Positions 2,361 to 9,959 of a DNA stretch of 10,106 bases are shown in pieces. The position numbers were made by a program, and so were the translations under genes. The notes beneath the pieces were generated by a model that was not told the origin of the DNA, ran no database searches, and saw nothing but the letters and a program-made list of their open reading frames with translations. The DNA comes from an uncultured delta proteobacterium (GTDB lineage: Bacteria > Desulfobacterota > BSN033 > UBA1163): assembly GCA_963827685.1 (NCBI GenBank), contig CAWHBU010000014.1, positions 1 through 10,106 on the forward strand, read 5' to 3'. How positions within the stretch are numbered: the first letter of the stretch is position 1; each line of letters opens with the position of its first letter.

Positions 2361-3269
2361 TCAAGGTTCGACAACAACGTGAAGTGTGTAACGTGGGCCG
2401 CCTTGGAGCTGTGCGTCGATCTCGGCAATGCCGGACACCGGGCCGCCCGTGACGGAAAAACGTACAATGCCTAACCGGGCAAAGCCCGGGCCAAAACGTT
2501 CCGGCTTGAGTGTGACAGCGACCCCGCGCCGCACAACCGTTCCGATCGGCGTTCCATCGCTGAGGATCTCCAGGTTTTCATTGGTGCCGAGACTCAGATC
2601 AATGGAGGAGCGGGCCTTATCGGGCAAATTGATTAAGAGGTCAATAGGCAGCGGTGCGGCCTGGCCCGCCTTCACATGCTGCCAATCCTCATTTCGACCC
2701 TCGTGAAGTTGGTTGTAGGCAGCGACGATCGGCACCGGCTTTGAAGTAATGTGGACGACGGCATGCGTGGTCCCAGACAATTCTCCGGCATCCGAGATTT
2801 TGATCGTGATTGGATAGTCTCCTTCCCGCAAAGGGTTGAGCGGACCCCAACGCAGGTGAATCGCCTTCAAGCCTGGGCGCTCCGGTGGGCCGACGGGGAA
2901 GGCCTCTTTTAGTTTGAGAAAGATGGTACGTGGGTCCGTAGGATCCAGCCCTACGGCAAAGGGTACGGGCGCGGCCTTCTGCGGCCAGCCGTAGAGGAGG
3001 ACAGCCTCTGGATGGATACCCAGCTTCGGTGTAAACGCCGGCGGGAATGTGAAGCGGAAAGTTGCGCCGGCCGGTAGGGCATACCCCGATTCAGCCGGGT
3101 TGGATGACTTATCGAAGACGACCCACGCCTCGAACGGGTATCCGGCTGCGAGCCCCTGGCTCGTCATCGGCTGGTATTCGATGGTCGCCTCCGGTGGACT
3201 CGCCATGACAGTTGTAGCCAAAAACACAACGGTCATTGTACTGAATAACAATATGTAAATCTTCCTCAT
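2361..3269 (-). CDS. Secreted/periplasmic hypothetical protein, 302 aa
   Basis: Long ORF with AGGAGGT RBS just upstream and a Sec-type signal peptide (MRKIYILLFSTMTVVFLATTVMA|SP). The mature part is Pro/Gly-rich and looks beta-rich. No family recognised. Confidence 0.85.
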   Translation of the reverse strand: MRKIYILLFSTMTVVFLATTVMASPPEATIEYQPMTSQGLAAGYPFEAWVVFDKSSNPAESGYALPAGATFRFTFPPAFTPKLGIHPEAVLLYGWPQKAAPVPFAVGLDPTDPRTIFLKLKEAFPVGPPERPGLKAIHLRWGPLNPLREGDYPITIKISDAGELSGTTHAVVHITSKPVPIVAAYNQLHEGRNEDWQHVKAGQAAPLPIDLLINLPDKARSSIDLSLGTNENLEILSDGTPIGTVVRRGVAVTLKPERFGPGFARLGIVRFSVTGGPVSGIAEIDAQLQGGPRYTLHVVVEP

Positions 3270-3583: not shown

Positions 3584-4960
3584 TTAAAAACCAAAATAGT
3601 ACCTCACTCTGAATTCTATCCTGTAATCGTTTTGCTTTTCGCCGAAATCGGTTCCTTTATGTCCGACCAGGGCCATTCCTTTAAGTCGGAATTCCCAGTT
3701 CTTGAAGCCCTCGTACAGAAGCTCGGGAGAAATGGAAAAACTTCGGTCATCGAGATTCATAATCGTGGTGATGGCGGGTGTAAAGTAAAGTATATTGAAA
3801 GGTTCTTTTTGACTGATCCGCAAGTAAAGGTAGTCTTTTCCTGGATTCATTCCTCCATAGTTGCCCAGGAACAGGGTCTCGGCCTTTATGACCTGATTAT
3901 TCTTCCCAGTGGATTGGAATGTATCAAAGGCCCTGTGTGTGAATGAAAAAAAATCCTCCAATTCAGACGAGCTATAACCAGGTGCATTATGATAATATTC
4001 GAGAATGTAAGTGGTGTCCATCGAGGAAAGGTACCGTAGACCCAAGAGAAAACTCTTGGCATCGAATGTAGTCTTGAAGGTATTCCCGCTGCTGTCGATT
4101 GAAGTTTTCTGTTGATGGTTGGTGAAGGCAAACTCTCCATGGACCTCCAAGTTCGTTGTAACATTCCTTGAGAAATCAAATCCAAACCGATTTGTCTTGC
4201 TTCCACCGGTCAAAAAAAGAAAATCGATATCGGTATCATAAAAAAGAAAATAGACTCTGCCGGCAACATTGACATGGCCGATCTCTCCGAAGGTATCATT
4301 TACGTGGTGGTAAACAGGAAATATCACGGGCGTCACGGAGAGCGTTTTTAGTGGCCCACTGAAGCTCTTGATGTAATCTGCCGTGGCAGCGATATACCCT
4401 TCGCGAGGAAGCTCGGGGTCGTCCGGGTTTTTGGGGCGGTCGACAAAAGCCACAGGGTTCCAGGCATATCCTTTGCCCCAGCCGAACACCCTTTTCCCAA
4501 GATCGATGGTCAACGAGGATGAAGGTTTAAAGGACACGTAACCTTCATAAATCTTTGTCTCATGGTCCCAGCCTTGGTAAGTATGATTCAAGCCCAGATT
4601 CGTTTTCAAAAAAAGTCCGACAATCCCTTTCTCATAGCTCCCTTCAAGCCAGACTCTGCCGTCGTAATCCTCGATGGTGCTTCCCTCTTTACGATTAAAA
4701 AAGTTCAGCTTGTAGATTGCATTGTCCTTGTCCAGGCCGTAGAGAATAGGCCTGAATTCGAGATAGCCACCGATATGGTAGGGCTTTTTCTGAATTTCGG
4801 AAGCTTCAAATTTATACTCTTCTGCCGGCGGAGCGGAAGGCGGAGCCTGGGTCTCAGTCGTTTGACCGGTAGGACTTTGAGATGGGTACTCTTCTGCAAA
4901 AGAACTAATTGAGACGAAAAAGAAGAGTAAGACGACAGAGGTGTAAAGAAATCTGTTCAT
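3584..4960 (-). CDS. Outer-membrane beta-barrel protein, uncharacterised, 458 aa
   Basis: Signal peptide (…SISSFA|EE), Pro/Thr/Gln linker, alternating aromatic-rich amphipathic strands, GKRVFGWGKGYAWNPV motif, and a C-terminal BAM-type strand ending IEFRVRYYFGF. Confidence 0.85.
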   Translation of the reverse strand: MNRFLYTSVVLLFFFVSISSFAEEYPSQSPTGQTTETQAPPSAPPAEEYKFEASEIQKKPYHIGGYLEFRPILYGLDKDNAIYKLNFFNRKEGSTIEDYDGRVWLEGSYEKGIVGLFLKTNLGLNHTYQGWDHETKIYEGYVSFKPSSSLTIDLGKRVFGWGKGYAWNPVAFVDRPKNPDDPELPREGYIAATADYIKSFSGPLKTLSVTPVIFPVYHHVNDTFGEIGHVNVAGRVYFLFYDTDIDFLFLTGGSKTNRFGFDFSRNVTTNLEVHGEFAFTNHQQKTSIDSSGNTFKTTFDAKSFLLGLRYLSSMDTTYILEYYHNAPGYSSSELEDFFSFTHRAFDTFQSTGKNNQVIKAETLFLGNYGGMNPGKDYLYLRISQKEPFNILYFTPAITTIMNLDDRSFSISPELLYEGFKNWEFRLKGMALVGHKGTDFGEKQNDYRIEFRVRYYFGF

Positions 4961-7085: not shown

Positions 7086-7782
7086 TTTTCTTCCCTCCTT
7101 TGGCCTGTTTTCCGGCAATTTCTCCATCCTCCAGCGCATAGATAATTTCTGCTTCCCCTACGATCTTTTGATCGTGCGTCGAGAAAATGAAGGTGGTCTG
7201 AAATTCATCCCTCATCTTTTTCATGAGTTCGATGACAAGATAGGCTGTTTTATGATCCAGGTTTGCAGTTGGTTCATCAGCCAAGACAAGCTTTGGATTT
7301 GTGACCAACGCCCTGGCAATAGCCACCCTCTGCTTTTGCCCTCCTGAAATTTGATCAGGAAACTTATCCTTTTGCTCGATCATTCCCACGGCCTCCAAAA
7401 GAGTCATCACCCTCTTTTTTCTGTCTCCAGGAGAGACATTTTGAACCATGAGCAGGGGGTATTCAATATTTTCAAAGACCGTGAGTATGGGTATCAGGTT
7501 GAAATCCTGGAAGATAAACCCGATGTTGTTTCCCCTGAATGAGGCGCTTTGTTTCCGGTCAAGGTGGAGGACATCGGTGTCTGCCACCATCAATTTTCCC
7601 TCCGTGGGTTTATCAAGACACCCGATCAAATTCAAAAGGGTCGTCTTGCCGCTTCCCGAGGGGCCGACAAAGGAAACGAAGGAAGCAGGCTCGATTTCAA
7701 AGCTGATCCCTTTTAACGCCCGGACCGTTATCTCACCAACCTGGTAATCCTTACTAATGTTCTCTGCCGCAATGAGTTCCAT
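7078..7782 (-). CDS. ABC transporter ATP-binding protein, LolD/MacB-like, 234 aa
   Basis: Walker A GPSGSGKTT, Q-loop GFIFQDFNL, signature ISGGQKQRV, Walker B VLADEPTANLD, H-loop STHD. AAAGGAGA RBS precedes ATG 7782. Confidence 0.95.
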   Translation of the reverse strand: MELIAAENISKDYQVGEITVRALKGISFEIEPASFVSFVGPSGSGKTTLLNLIGCLDKPTEGKLMVADTDVLHLDRKQSASFRGNNIGFIFQDFNLIPILTVFENIEYPLLMVQNVSPGDRKKRVMTLLEAVGMIEQKDKFPDQISGGQKQRVAIARALVTNPKLVLADEPTANLDHKTAYLVIELMKKMRDEFQTTFIFSTHDQKIVGEAEIIYALEDGEIAGKQAKGGKKNG

Positions 7783-7809
7783 ATTATCTCCTTTCAAATA
7801 TTCCTTTTT

Positions 7810-8719
7810 TTACCGAGGGAATCCCTTCCATACTCCCCTGCGTGTGCCCGCATCCATTCCAAATCCTGACTCTATTCCCAACAAACAGTCCTCAGGAAGT
7901 CGCTCCAATTGCTCTTTTGTGAAGATTGACCTGGCTTTCATCTGGAAAGAAAATACAAGATTGCCAAGTTTCGCCTGGAGTTCTGAAATCTTCTTTTGCC
8001 GGTCAAGAAGGATCTTAGGTCGAAACATTCGGGTCCCGGACTAAATAGCGAAATTCAAGCCTTAAAACTATGAGATCCCTTCTCAGAGGCATAGCTTCTG
8101 CCATGTAGGCATGCTGAATGGCTTCAAGTGCCTTTGCCTGTTCCTCGGTGAGGACGGATGATTGCCCGCATACGCCCTCTTCGCCCATCTTCAAAATCGC
8201 CTTGTTTTGTTTGGGAAAAGAGGGTTGAGCCAGCAAGGGCTGAATGTTCATGCTGGTCAATAAGAAAAGTAATAATCCAAGCCTGATTTCCCGTCGCAGG
8301 GATGGCCTTCTGTCCTTTCCAATATTTTCGGAAATATTTCGGTTTTGAAACTTTCCTGGTATTGAGAGACTCCTTAATAATTCGTATAACTTATCCCAAT
8401 CGATGGGTTTGGAAAGGAATCCATCCACCCTTTCTTCTTTGGCCTTGTTCTTGATCTCATCCGCTGGAAAACCGGTGACCATAATGGTACGAAGGTGAGG
8501 GTGAATCATCCTGGCATTCCGAATCAGTTCGAAGCCATCCATTCCAGGCATACGGACGTCGGTAATGAGAATATTGAAAGACTCTCTGTTAAGACATGTC
8601 AATGCCTCCTCCGCATCGGCACAGGATCGGGTTTCATACCCCGAACTATGAAGGAGGTTTTCCATTGCACCTCTGGAGAAAACGTCATCCTCCACGATTA
8701 GAATCTTTTTGGATTTCAT
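7810..8719 (-). pseudogene. Receiver (REC) domain + signal/TM segment + Spy/CpxP/ZraP-like domain fusion, interrupted by one extra base near 8023-8025 (true frameshift or sequence error)
   Basis: REC motifs are intact (ILIVEDD, LITD54VRMPGMDG, MVTG, LSKP). Hydrophobic segment LGLLLFLLTSMNIQPLLA is followed by LTEEQ. Removing one T from AAT GTT TCG ACC TAA gives NVRPKILLDRQKKISELQAKL…FTKEQ, joining ORFs 8015..8719 and 7810..8028 into a 302-aa protein that aligns without gaps to the upstream ZraP-like protein. Confidence 0.85.
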
Positions 8720-8745
8720 TTTTCCCCTTTTTCTGAATGACAGGG

Positions 8746-8773
8746 ACAGGGCGGAGAAATCTCCCCGCCCTGT
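8746..8773 (-). terminator. GC-rich stem-loop after the ZraP-like gene, lacking a U-tract (weak terminator or mRNA-stabilising hairpin)
   Basis: Minus strand ACAGGGCGGGGA-GATT-TCTCCGCCCTGT forms a 12-bp stem with one G-U pair, 8 nt after the stop codon, followed by CCCTGTCATT rather than poly-U. Confidence 0.6.
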
Positions 8774-8781
8774 GTTCGAGC

Positions 8782-9237
8782 CTACCAGCAGCCCATACGG
8801 CCCATTTTGCCCATTCCTGGACCAAAGCCCATGCCGTAGCCAAATGTTCCTATTTGGGCTTGTTGTTCCGGAGTGAGCAGCTTCCGGATAGCGAGCCTGA
8901 AATTGGTAGCTTTCTCTTGGAGTTTGCTCTGGAGATTCAGAATCTCCTTCTGCTTGGCTGTGATGGCAGCCTGATCAGGATTCTGGGTTAGCCAGAGGCT
9001 ACGAAGCTCGGTTCTCTTCTTGAAGAGATCCTCCTGAAGCGGTGCGGTCTCATCCAGATGGGCCTTCTGTAAGGCCTGAATCTTCGAAGATTGCTCCGCC
9101 GTCAAGTTGGGAATAGCAGGATAACCATACCCCGGTCCCATACCATAGCCTCGGCCAGGCCCCCAGGCCAGTGCCGCTGTCGCCATCAAGGCCAAAGCCA
9201 ACATCAGACTCAGCGTAATGATGGTGGTCTTTTTCAT
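8782..9237 (-). CDS. Spy/CpxP/ZraP-family periplasmic chaperone / heavy-metal sensor accessory protein, 151 aa
   Basis: Signal peptide (…TAALA|WG), Gly/Met/Tyr-rich N- and C-terminal tails, two LTxxQ motifs (LTAEQ, LTPEQ) flanking a helical core, strong AAGGAGGTGA RBS. Confidence 0.92.
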   Translation of the reverse strand: MKKTTIITLSLMLALALMATAALAWGPGRGYGMGPGYGYPAIPNLTAEQSSKIQALQKAHLDETAPLQEDLFKKRTELRSLWLTQNPDQAAITAKQKEILNLQSKLQEKATNFRLAIRKLLTPEQQAQIGTFGYGMGFGPGMGKMGRMGCW

Positions 9238-9373: not shown

Positions 9374-9682
9374 TTAGCAGCGAAGGGGAACAGGATTGAG
9401 GAAGGTATTGGAATAGAAGGAGTAGAGAAGAGAAATCCGCAACTCTTGAGTGGAAGGTAATACCTGAAAAACTGTAGTCAAACGTAAACTTGCTAAAATC
9501 TGGTTATCATGAGAGGCGATGGAATGGAAAGGACACGGCTTACATTTCACTTCTTGCTTCCCCTGAGAGAGGGGACATCCGGCACCAATTTTTTGAAGAA
9601 AGTTTAGTGGGATCATACCAAGTAGAATCGGTATGAGAACGATTGCCGGGATAAGAATGAATAGTTTTGATCTGCCACTCAT
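9374..9682 (-). CDS. Small membrane-anchored Cys-rich protein, 102 aa; candidate metal-responsive leader peptide
   Basis: AAAGAGGT RBS before ATG 9682; the longer start at 9736 overlaps the sigma54 promoter. N-terminal TM LFILIPAIVLIPILLGMI, Cys cluster CPLSQGKQEVKCKPCPFH, low-complexity linker, C-terminus NPVPLRC. Confidence 0.72.
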   Translation of the reverse strand: MSGRSKLFILIPAIVLIPILLGMIPLNFLQKIGAGCPLSQGKQEVKCKPCPFHSIASHDNQILASLRLTTVFQVLPSTQELRISLLYSFYSNTFLNPVPLRC

Positions 9683-9719: not shown

Positions 9720-9735
9720 AGCATTTTTGATGCCA
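9720..9735 (-). promoter_or_regulatory. Sigma54 (RpoN) -24/-12 promoter
   Basis: TGGCATCAAAAATGCT has exact GG-N10-GC spacing (consensus TGGCACN5TTGC). It is ~40 nt upstream of ATG 9682, with an AT-rich tract (9740-9778) and enhancer-like repeats further upstream. Confidence 0.75.
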
Positions 9736-9837
9736 TAATCTAAGAATTTTTTTGATAATTAAAAATATTTTTGAATTACGAGGAGTTAGATAAATCCAGA
9801 AGGTTCAAATTAGGATACATAAAATGCAGCGGTTAAA

Positions 9838-9959
9838 TCGACTTCGACAATGATGTCGAGTAAAAGAGGCAGGAATTAACTTGTTTTCCTTCAATATCAA
9901 TCCGTTACATAAATTTCGACATGACTTTCCTGAATCGACAGCCTTGTCAAACATCGACA
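9838..9959. promoter_or_regulatory. Clustered TGTCGA/TCGACA repeats; candidate upstream activating sequences for a sigma54 enhancer-binding protein
   Basis: Plus strand: TCGACA-ATGA-TGTCGA (9844-9859); TCGACA at 9916, 9935 and 9954 (exact 19-bp period); TGTCAA at 9945; TCGACT at 9838. Confidence 0.65.

What the first reader, a model, noticed from the sequence alone, without database searches (positions are those of the whole stretch)
7810..8719. Receiver domain fused through a signal/TM segment to a Spy/CpxP/ZraP domain
Seen: an intact REC domain (D54, T and K conserved), a ~25-aa linker with no in-frame ATG/GTG/TTG, a basic-hydrophobic-PLLA|Q segment resembling a Sec signal peptide, then an LTxxQ...FTxxQ helical domain. 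Established: CpxP and ZraP are free periplasmic modulators of their sensor kinases (CpxA, ZraS), and REC domains are cytoplasmic. Inference: one polypeptide puts a phospho-acceptor inside and a kinase-modulating/chaperone domain outside. It could be a membrane-spanning feedback modulator or phosphate sink for the two-component system driving this operon, or a polyprotein cleaved by signal peptidase I. I know of no characterised protein with this architecture.
Basis: partly seen in the sequence, partly recalled or inferred. Interest (0 to 1): 0.82.

Follow-up and report, generated by a model that had tools for sequence, protein, structure and literature searches.

The report
Receiver domain fused to exported ZraP-like protein
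A sediment bacterium and its relatives make one protein with a cytoplasmic phospho-receiver domain, a signal-peptide-like segment and a periplasmic ZraP/CpxP/Spy-like domain; this is a real but narrow and uncharacterised gene family that could link two-component signalling to an exported stress protein.

Summary
On the minus strand, 8719-7810 encodes REC (Pfam 88.8 bits), a basic linker, a hydrophobic signal-peptide-like segment and a divergent ZraP/CpxP/Spy-type (Metal_resist) hairpin domain.

The two ORFs in the window are split by one extra base in a short run (8023-8025). Contigs from three public runs, one otherwise identical to the window, lack that base. The break is therefore most likely an assembly error or a rare variant.

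The fusion is not a local accident. 77 of the 80 best metagenome loci carry REC and the Spy-like part in one frame, and the phospho-acceptor residues are invariant in 39 proteins. The family is narrow: one family of Thermodesulfobacteriota, with two full-length representatives at 50% identity among 1.84 billion proteins.

REC is optional. REC-less alleles sit at the same locus with the same hydrophobic segment as an ordinary N-terminal signal peptide. Some keep stubs of REC.

The gene is third in a sigma-54 operon (small Cys protein, ZraP-like protein, this gene, then a MacB-type ABC exporter) with conserved upstream palindromes. No kinase lies nearby.

Best reading, inferred: an exported and probably cleaved ZraP paralogue that leaves or carries a membrane-tethered receiver for feedback. 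I found no paper on this architecture. It is a new variant of known kinds, of moderate to high interest.

The parts
7810..8719 (-). REC-linker-signal segment-Spy/ZraP-like gene (302 aa when the extra base is read through)
   Evidence: intact 98%-identical homologue P0002
8375..8704 (-). Receiver (REC) domain, residues 6-115; the D54 codon is at 8560-8558
   Evidence: PF00072, 88.8 bits; D11, D54, T82 and K104 invariant in 39 sequences; AF2 (beta-alpha)5 fold with pLDDT about 85-97
8297..8374 (-). Basic linker predicted to be disordered, residues 116-141, with no in-frame start codon
   Evidence: net charge +1 to +5 in the 12 residues before the hydrophobic run in 43 REC-bearing proteins
8228..8296 (-). 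Hydrophobic signal-peptide-like segment, residues 142-164, ending in a -3/-1 (L..A) site before Q165
   Evidence: helix 142-157 in the AF2 model; same features as the N-terminal signal peptides of REC-less alleles
7909..8152 (-). ZraP/CpxP/Spy-type (Metal_resist) helical hairpin domain
   Evidence: PF13801 E 4.6e-4; 37 of 39 homologues at E<=1e-3; profile hit to ZraP 3lay, E 0.003; Foldseek top hits are ZraP, CpxP, NccX/CnrX and Spy
8023..8025 (.). Run that holds one extra base (the frameshift)
   Evidence: alignment with L009, L017 and L018; left out in contigs of runs X1 and X3, and loose ends of X1 and X2 read the shorter form
8782..9237 (-). ZraP-like periplasmic protein (upstream paralogue)
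   Evidence: PF13801 2.2e-16 and LTXXQ 6.3e-8; NCBIfam ZraP 56 bits, below the cut-off of 200
9374..9682 (-). Small membrane protein with Cys/His motifs; first gene of the operon
   Evidence: conserved upstream of the ZraP-like gene in most loci that reach that far; no Pfam family
9720..9735 (-). Sigma-54-type promoter (GG/GC elements at the canonical spacing)
   Evidence: the same element lies 52-61 nt upstream of the gene start in 31 of 38 related loci
9844..9950 (.). Two upstream palindromes TCGACA-N4-TGTCGA (9844-9859 perfect, 9935-9950 with one mismatch); candidate enhancer sites
   Evidence: conserved in the alignment of 27 upstream regions; only 2 perfect sites in the 5.2-Mb genome
5019..7797 (-). 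Downstream ABC ATPase, MacB_PCD/FtsX permease and LolA-like protein
   Evidence: syntenic in related loci

Best explanation
Shown: this is a genuine, clade-restricted gene. It encodes, in one polypeptide, a phosphorylatable cytoplasmic receiver domain, a basic linker, a Sec-type signal-peptide-like hydrophobic segment and a periplasmic ZraP/CpxP/Spy-like domain. It is the third gene of a sigma-54-dependent metal or envelope-stress operon: small Cys protein, ZraP-like protein, this gene, then a MacB-type ABC exporter with a LolA-like protein. The break in the window is an artefact or a rare variant. The REC part is an optional N-terminal add-on to a secreted ZraP paralogue.

Inferred: the protein inserts N-in/C-out. 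Signal peptidase I probably cuts after the conserved ..A|Q site. This frees the ZraP-like domain into the periplasm and leaves one membrane-tethered receiver per exported molecule. That receiver takes phosphoryl groups from the still unidentified kinase that drives the operon's sigma-54 activator. The effect would be a cytoplasmic negative-feedback arm (a phosphate sink), parallel to the periplasmic feedback known for ZraP and CpxP.
For: - One ORF in 77 of the 80 best metagenome loci. Six of 13 related genomes with the gene carry the fused form.
- D11, D54, T82 and K104 are invariant in 39 proteins with 69% mean column identity.
- The hydrophobic segment cannot be told apart from the N-terminal signal peptides of REC-less alleles. 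The -1 residue is A in 40 of 43 against 70 of 74. The -3 residue is S, L or A in 42 of 43 against 70 of 74. The hydrophobic core has a median of 15 residues in both. Net charge before it is a median of +3 in both.
- REC-less alleles occupy the same locus, with no room for a REC gene.
- ZraP is the top match by profile and by fold.
- The sigma-54 promoter and the palindromes are conserved.
- The same genome has a ZraP-ZraS-ZraR-like locus with a sigma-54 promoter. The REC of its activator is the best REC match to the fusion in that genome (33% identity).
- The frameshift is absent from contigs of runs X1 and X3.
Against: - No cleavage predictor could be run. An uncharged run of median 18 residues could also serve as a membrane anchor, and the fold relatives CnrX and NccX are anchored.
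- No histidine kinase or sigma-54 activator lies in the window or within 10 kb in four long loci. The phospho-donor is therefore a guess. The 33% match to the ZraR-like REC barely exceeds the next hits, at 28-32%.
- REC is gained or lost at least 10 times on the C-domain tree, so it is dispensable for the exported part.
- The window's own Metal_resist score is below Pfam's cut-off.
- No Foldseek match reaches E 0.001.
Confidence: 0.45

Rival explanations
1. The protein is an uncleaved type-II membrane protein that signals inside-out. Phosphorylation-driven REC dimerisation in the cytoplasm would change the oligomeric state or activity of the periplasmic ZraP-like domain through the single membrane helix. 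The same wiring could also run outside-in.
For: Topology features. CnrX and NccX, which are membrane-anchored, are among the fold matches. REC residues are conserved. A PF13801 membrane protein with a putative cytoplasmic anti-sigma domain is described for group ECF241 (PMC7826278, passages read).
Against: The segment keeps the same -3/-1 site and short hydrophobic core as the plain signal peptides of REC-less alleles. About 34 residues predicted to be disordered separate the helix from the hairpin, which is a poor conduit for a conformational signal.
Confidence: 0.25
2. The receiver is released by regulated proteolysis. The periplasmic domain senses metal or misfolded protein and is degraded. 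An intramembrane protease then frees REC into the cytoplasm, where it acts as a single-domain regulator, following the logic of RseA-type anti-sigma factors.
For: The closest REC relatives outside the fusion are stand-alone single-domain regulators of 128-140 aa. NCBIfam's best REC match is CpdR, a single-domain regulator. A rhomboid gene follows the ZraSR-like locus in the same genome.
Against: There is no direct evidence and no protease gene is conserved in the operon.
Confidence: 0.1
3. The REC part has no signalling role. It is a tolerated N-terminal extension on its way to being lost.
For: REC presence changes at least 10 times on the tree. In-frame deletion stubs exist (P0012, P0058 and P0092 keep 21-26 REC residues).
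Against: All catalytic residues are invariant in 39 diverged sequences, and REC identity is about as high as that of the rest of the protein. That pattern indicates purifying selection.
Confidence: 0.1
4. The fusion is a local accident, a pseudogene or an assembly chimera in this window.
For: The window copy is frameshifted. The genome bin has 8% contamination.
Against: One ORF in 77 of 80 loci. An intact 98%-identical protein exists. The extra base is absent from public contigs.
Confidence: 0.02

Closest known systems
ZraP (zinc resistance-associated periplasmic protein; PDB 3lay)
   Same: It is the best profile match (E 0.003) and the best fold match (TM 0.8-0.87 on the target, rmsd 1.5-2.3 A over about 75 residues). 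Both have LTxxQ-type motifs and a sigma-54-type promoter for the operon. That zraP is sigma-54/ZraR dependent and represses ZraS is recalled knowledge.
   Different: ZraP is a free periplasmic protein with no cytoplasmic domain. The NCBIfam ZraP model did not match the fused protein at E<=0.1 and scored only 56 of the 200 bits needed on the neighbouring paralogue.
CpxP and Spy (periplasmic modulator and chaperone)
   Same: The same helical-hairpin superfamily appears among the fold matches (3qzc, 3itf, 3o39). JGI names REC-less relatives 'Spy/CpxP family protein refolding chaperone'.
   Different: Matches are weak (E 0.16-0.8). LTXXQ (PF07813) scores only 12.3 bits on the window protein. Neither CpxP nor Spy has a REC domain.
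CnrX/NccX membrane-anchored periplasmic metal sensors
   Same: The fold class is the same (4clv, 2y39, 3epv). They are held at the membrane by an N-terminal helix and signal across it (recalled).
   Different: They have no cytoplasmic domain of their own and act through the anti-sigma factor CnrY (recalled).
Single-domain response regulators (CheY, CpdR, phosphate-sink receivers)
   Same: The receiver has no DNA-binding or enzymatic output. The best NCBIfam match is CpdR (78 bits, below its cut-off). The nearest non-fused relatives are 128-140-aa receivers.
   Different: Here the receiver is translated in one piece with a signal segment and an exported domain.
PF13801 membrane proteins linked to ECF sigma factors (group ECF241)
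   Same: A Metal_resist domain outside the membrane is coupled to a putative cytoplasmic signalling module in one membrane protein (PMC7826278, passages read).
   Different: The cytoplasmic module there is a putative anti-sigma domain placed C-terminally after two helices, not an N-terminal REC.
Polyproteins cut at an internal signal peptide (e.g. the Bradyrhizobium FbcH cytochrome b-c1 precursor; recalled, not checked here)
   Same: A cytoplasmic or membrane part sits upstream of an internal signal sequence that signal peptidase cleaves.
   Different: That case is a respiratory complex, not signalling. Cleavage is unproven for the family studied here.

Membership tests
Response regulator receiver domain (PF00072, CheY-like) | Profile score above the curated cut-off | tested here: met
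   88.8 bits against 30.2; 39 of 39 homologues match
Response regulator receiver domain (PF00072, CheY-like) | Acidic pocket, phospho-accepting Asp, and conserved Thr/Ser and Lys | tested here: met
   D11, D54, T82 and K104 invariant, D12 in at least 90%, in 39 sequences
Response regulator receiver domain (PF00072, CheY-like) | (beta-alpha)5 fold | tested here: met
   AF2 model: five strands alternating with five helices, pLDDT 85-97
Response regulator receiver domain (PF00072, CheY-like) | Phosphotransfer from a cognate histidine kinase | not testable with these tools
   No kinase in the window or within 10 kb in L094, L071, L036 and L058
CpxP/Spy/ZraP superfamily (PF13801 Metal_resist, PF07813 LTXXQ) | Profile score above the curated cut-off | tested here: not met
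   Window protein: PF13801 20.8 bits against 29.2, and PF07813 12.3 bits against 24.3. Across the family, 37 of 39 match at E<=1e-3, the best at 6.1e-10, and precomputed Pfam lists PF13801 for many hits. It is a divergent member rather than a non-member.
CpxP/Spy/ZraP superfamily (PF13801 Metal_resist, PF07813 LTXXQ) | Long helical hairpin fold like ZraP, CpxP and Spy | tested here: inconclusive
   Hairpin predicted at pLDDT 85-97. The six best Foldseek rows are ZraP chains, followed by CpxP, but the best E is 0.02 and none reaches 0.001.
CpxP/Spy/ZraP superfamily (PF13801 Metal_resist, PF07813 LTXXQ) | Two LTxxQ-type motifs | tested here: met
   LTEEQ and FTKEQ in the translation. Q194 and Q270 are invariant; L190 and T267 are at least 90% conserved.
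ZraP proper (NCBIfam NF008584 equivalog) | Equivalog score of at least 200 bits | tested here: not met
   No match for the fused protein at E<=0.1; 56.3 bits for the neighbouring gene 8782-9237
Sec signal peptide with a signal peptidase I site | Basic n-region, hydrophobic h-region of about 7-15 residues, small residues at -3 and -1 | tested here: met
   43 REC-bearing proteins: net charge median +3, core median 15, -1 A/T/G in 43 of 43, -3 S/L/A in 42 of 43. The figures are the same for 74 REC-less proteins, where the segment is N-terminal. The rule itself is recalled; no SignalP was run.
Sec signal peptide with a signal peptidase I site | Actual cleavage and export | not testable with these tools
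   Needs tagged expression or N-terminal sequencing
Sigma-54-dependent operon | -24 GG and -12 GC elements at fixed spacing upstream of the first gene | tested here: met
   Window 9735-9720 (alone no better than chance, 4 found against 4.1 expected). Conserved 52-61 nt upstream in 31 of 38 loci, against a background of 0.012 per 210 nt.

The most novel reading that the evidence does not exclude
The gene is a 'secretion-coupled receiver'. Each ZraP-like molecule exported and cleaved leaves exactly one membrane-tethered phospho-acceptor behind. The cell thereby counts its periplasmic chaperone output in the currency of the controlling two-component system. This would be a stoichiometric, two-compartment feedback device made by a single translation product, with natural REC-less alleles acting as built-in knock-outs.
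Probability: 0.2. Interest if true: 0.85.

Novelty: new variant of a known kind. Interest (0 to 1): 0.62.

Why it matters
Response regulators are treated as cytoplasmic proteins whose outputs act in the cytoplasm. ZraP, CpxP and Spy are treated as free periplasmic proteins. A conserved polypeptide that joins the two across the membrane would be a new way to wire envelope-stress feedback.

The natural REC-present and REC-absent alleles at one locus offer a ready comparison for experiments. The finding also gives a concrete case for testing whether bacteria use internal signal peptides to make two proteins for two compartments from one gene.

Tried and rejected
- **Read-through codes.** GTTT=V and AATG=N shifted the frame at other in-frame sites and gave stops. 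TCGA=S worked.
- **Palindrome spacing.** N5 was the wrong spacing and missed the window's own site. N4 is correct.
- **Sigma-54 pattern in the window alone.** It is not above chance (4 found against 4.12 expected). Only its conservation across loci gives it weight.
- **Other palindrome sites.** The perfect palindrome at C2:489453 lies inside an ORF with no family and was not pursued.
- **Earlier findings of this scan.** Nothing was shown.
- **RNA evidence.** No RNA holder was listed.
- **Foldseek.** No match at E<=0.001. The two-domain model was not fold-searched, because REC hits would swamp the list.
- **Complex prediction.** Not used. Homodimers of this superfamily would pass by likeness to solved structures, and the kinase partner is unknown.
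- **Phospho-donor from REC similarity.** Not decisive. The ZraR-like activator's REC scores 62.2 bits and 33% identity, against 61.3 bits for a 139-aa frame. NCBIfam ranks CpdR, FixJ and NtrC above ZraR.
- **Independent distant fusions.** The representative search lists only the top 150 of 887,672 hits. REC+Metal_resist fusions scoring under about 147 bits cannot be excluded.
- **Literature.** Searches cover only the held open-access and bioRxiv library. Galperin's 2006 and 2010 response-regulator censuses and InterPro architecture tables were not seen.

Full report
**What is in the window**

The window is the whole of contig C14 of a 14-contig, 5.2-Mb genome bin (94.5% complete, 8% contamination). 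On the minus strand, ORF 8719..8015 (234 aa) carries a receiver domain: PF00072, residues 6-115, 88.8 bits against a cut-off of 30.2. It overlaps ORF 8028..7810 (72 aa).

Reading one four-base step gives a 302-aa protein, P0001. Its weak Metal_resist match (PF13801, residues 190-270, E 4.6e-4, 20.8 bits, below the cut-off of 29.2) spans the break. The two ORFs are therefore halves of one gene.

- the REC domain with D54, T82 and K104;
- a basic linker with no in-frame start codon;
- a hydrophobic segment ending ..A|Q;
- the motifs LTEEQ and FTKEQ.

**The break**

Against the 98%-identical locus L009 and two further relatives, the window has one extra T in a short T run (minus strand 8025-8023).

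Logan contigs of four public runs were laid on 7600-8900:
- Run X1 holds 0.97 of the sampled words. Its 1122-base contig has no other difference over 8006-8900 and leaves that base out.
- A 7-kb contig of run X3 also leaves it out.
- Loose ends of a second X1 contig and of an X2 contig read the shorter form.
- No contig showed the three-base run.

These are contigs, not reads, and X1 may be the source sample. I therefore rate the break a probable assembly error or a rare variant, not proven. A sister genome with few contigs (G051) shows REC and the neighbouring ZraP-like gene in several frames, which suits indel-prone assemblies.

**The fusion is a family, not an accident**

A search with residues 118-302 found 124 proteins, of which 120 were listed. 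Local phmmer with the REC part scored these 120 plus the query:
- 40 have a full REC (293-309 aa).
- 7 have a partial REC. Four start inside REC at a gene-call edge. Three keep only the first 21-26 REC residues.
- 74 have none (166-216 aa).

The JGI metagenome scan found 245 relatives and kept the best 80. That ranking favours full-length matches. Of the 80, 77 have REC and the Spy-like part in one uninterrupted frame as far as the contig reaches. At least five begin inside REC at a contig end. Three lack REC.

In 39 aligned full-length proteins (mean column identity 69%), D11, D54, T82 and K104 are invariant. All 39 match PF00072, and 37 of 39 match PF13801 at E<=1e-3.

**How narrow the family is**

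A profile of the 39 proteins, run against 1.84 billion representatives at 50% identity, returned two full-length representatives (303 and 304 aa) and three N-terminally shorter ones. The rest of the top 150 were multi-REC proteins, REC-only proteins or REC-less relatives. Weaker, independent fusions below about 147 bits cannot be excluded.

The ESM Atlas holds one cluster of 67 members with this make-up. Record titles name Thermodesulfobacteriota, Syntrophaceae and 'delta proteobacterium' MAGs.

Among the 55 genomes of the same order (a single family), 13 have a strong match to the exported domain:
- 6 are fused: G000, G044, G019, G003 and G037, plus G051 in pieces.
- 5 are REC-less: G006, G054, G043, G042 and G033.
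- 2 are cut by contig ends.

Both forms occur within genus g1 and within genus g21.

**REC is an optional add-on to a secreted ZraP paralogue**

REC-less alleles sit at the same place (small Cys protein, ZraP-like gene, then this gene). The intergenic gaps are far too short for a REC gene. REC is never a separate gene in front of the Spy-like gene.

On a tree of the C-terminal domain (120 rows, 113 columns, quick search), REC presence needs 26 changes. At least 10 of these are forced by well-supported branches, and several near-identical C-domains differ in REC. With so few columns the exact number is soft. Recombination between alleles could contribute.

Stubs of REC in REC-less proteins point to in-frame deletions. 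P0012, P0058 and P0092 were detected by phmmer. By eye, others keep the first few residues or the last REC helix.

**Topology and the signal segment**

Features of the hydrophobic segment in the two kinds of allele:

| Feature | 43 REC-bearing proteins | 74 REC-less proteins |
|---|---|---|
| Hydrophobic core, median | 15 residues | 15 residues |
| Uncharged run, median | 18 residues | 18 residues |
| Net charge before the segment, median | +3 | +3 |
| -1 residue is A | 40 of 43 | 70 of 74 |
| -3 residue is S, L or A | 42 of 43 | 70 of 74 |
| +1 residue is Q | 42 of 43 | 73 of 74 |

In the REC-less proteins this segment is an ordinary N-terminal signal peptide. By the positive-inside rule and the -3/-1 rule (recalled knowledge), REC is cytoplasmic and the ZraP-like domain is periplasmic, and cleavage after the A is plausible. 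No signal-peptide predictor was available, so cleavage is an inference.

AlphaFold2 on the 39-sequence alignment gives the following:
- a confident REC domain (pLDDT 85-97);
- a disordered linker (122-144);
- a helix at 142-157;
- a disordered stretch to about residue 187;
- a confident hairpin (192-228 and 234-265, pLDDT about 85);
- a disordered Gly/Arg-rich tail.

**The exported domain**

A profile of 30 REC-less members hits ZraP (3lay) at E 0.003 among solved-structure sequences. A model of a REC-less member (pLDDT above 90 over the hairpin) has ZraP chains as its six best Foldseek matches (TM 0.76-0.87 on the target). CpxP follows, then NccX/CnrX and Spy. No match reaches E 0.001. It is a divergent member of the ZraP/CpxP/Spy/CnrX hairpin group and not a ZraP equivalog.

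**Operon and regulation**

Gene order is conserved: small Cys/His membrane protein, one or two ZraP-like genes, this gene, a variable stretch, then an ABC ATPase, a MacB_PCD/FtsX permease, a LolA-like protein and a 458-aa protein with no family.

The long loci are metal or metalloid islands. They hold ArsR, an SBF-family transporter, LMW phosphatases, a chromate transporter, RND efflux genes and DsbA-like genes. There is no histidine kinase or sigma-54 activator within 10 kb in L094, L071, L036 or L058.

A sigma-54-type element (window 9735-9720) lies 52-61 nt upstream of the first gene in 31 of 38 loci with enough upstream sequence. Two more loci have it at about -140, and five have none. Background is 0.012 per 210 nt.

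Upstream of the promoter, palindromes TCGACA-N4-TGTCGA are conserved in 27 aligned regions. The genome has only two perfect copies. One is here (9844-9859), with a one-mismatch partner at 9935-9950. A similar pair precedes a paralogous operon at C6:229 kb, which encodes a 133-aa protein, a PEMT-like protein and a chromate transporter.

Elsewhere the genome has a ZraP-ZraS-ZraR-like locus: two Metal_resist genes, a HisKA kinase, a REC-sigma-54 activator and a rhomboid, with a consensus sigma-54 promoter. The activator's REC is the best REC match to the fusion in that genome, but only narrowly (33%). Its role as the operon's regulator is a guess.

**Mechanism**

Shown:
- a conserved one-piece REC + signal segment + ZraP-like protein;
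- a REC domain competent for phosphorylation by sequence;
- N-in/C-out features;
- a sigma-54 operon;
- REC is dispensable for the exported part.

Inferred, in order of my odds:
- Cleaved polyprotein whose membrane-tethered REC acts as a phosphate sink or feedback arm for the controlling two-component system (0.45 for the whole statement).
- Uncleaved inside-out or outside-in signalling protein (0.25).
- Proteolytic release of REC (0.1).
- REC without a signalling role (0.1).
- Artefact (0.02).

**Comparison and novelty**

The parts are textbook; their union is not. Six full-text searches found no paper on a REC-ZraP/CpxP/Spy fusion. The held library lacks many subscription papers, and I did not see InterPro architecture tables.

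The nearest precedent read is a two-helix PF13801 protein with a putative anti-sigma domain in ECF group 241 (PMC7826278, passages only). Source databases name the fused proteins 'DNA-binding response OmpR family regulator' or 'CheY-like chemotaxis protein'. The first name is wrong, because no DNA-binding domain is present.

Verdict: a new variant of known kinds, real and testable, with the mechanism open.

Noticed in passing
window 9374-9682 (-): The first gene of the operon encodes a 102-aa protein with an N-terminal membrane helix and conserved Cys/His motifs. It has no Pfam family. It is conserved in front of the ZraP-like gene in most related loci. The Atlas gives a weak lead to a DUF2946/DUF6769 cluster (score 0.94, 111 shared features).
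   Followed up: partly
window 9720-9950 (-); G000 C6:229196-229304: Conserved sigma-54 promoter plus TCGACA-N4-TGTCGA palindromes. The same arrangement precedes a paralogous operon (133-aa protein, PEMT-like protein, chromate transporter), so a small regulon of an unidentified sigma-54 activator is likely.
   Followed up: partly
window 8746-8773 (-): A 12-bp GC-rich hairpin lies between the stop of the ZraP-like gene and the start of the REC gene. The 76-nt stretch folds at -30 kcal/mol (z -3.3, 0 of 200 shuffles as stable). There is no T run, so it may be an intercistronic stabiliser or attenuator that sets the ratio of the two paralogues. Its conservation was not checked.
   Followed up: no
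G000 C3:694953-699572 (L097 6953-11572): A ZraPSR-like locus: two Metal_resist genes, a HisKA kinase, a REC-sigma-54 activator and then a rhomboid protease. A consensus sigma-54 promoter and TGTCGAA half-sites lie upstream.
   Followed up: partly
L116 (G054 C18:9377-12721): The only stand-alone receiver of the same REC subfamily found in the 55 related genomes lies directly after an ECF sigma factor, a putative anti-sigma protein and a membrane-anchored Metal_resist protein (53 bits). The REC/Metal_resist association therefore recurs unfused and in another gene order. This is a single case.
   Followed up: partly
window 3584-4960 and 2361-3269 (-): A 458-aa protein with a signal-peptide-like start and a 302-aa protein have no Pfam or NCBIfam family. 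The 458-aa gene follows the LolA-like gene in most long related loci.
   Followed up: no
L017, L021, L025, L030, L031, L035, L040; L046, L047, L073, L079, L082, L084, L087, L089, L093: The number of ZraP-like paralogues varies. Some loci have a further ZraP-like gene after the fused gene, and others have two before it.
   Followed up: no
L111 (G051 C4): In a 20-contig sister genome the REC part and the neighbouring ZraP-like gene are each split over several frames. This suggests many indel errors in low-contig (probably long-read) bins of this group, including the window's own genome.
   Followed up: no
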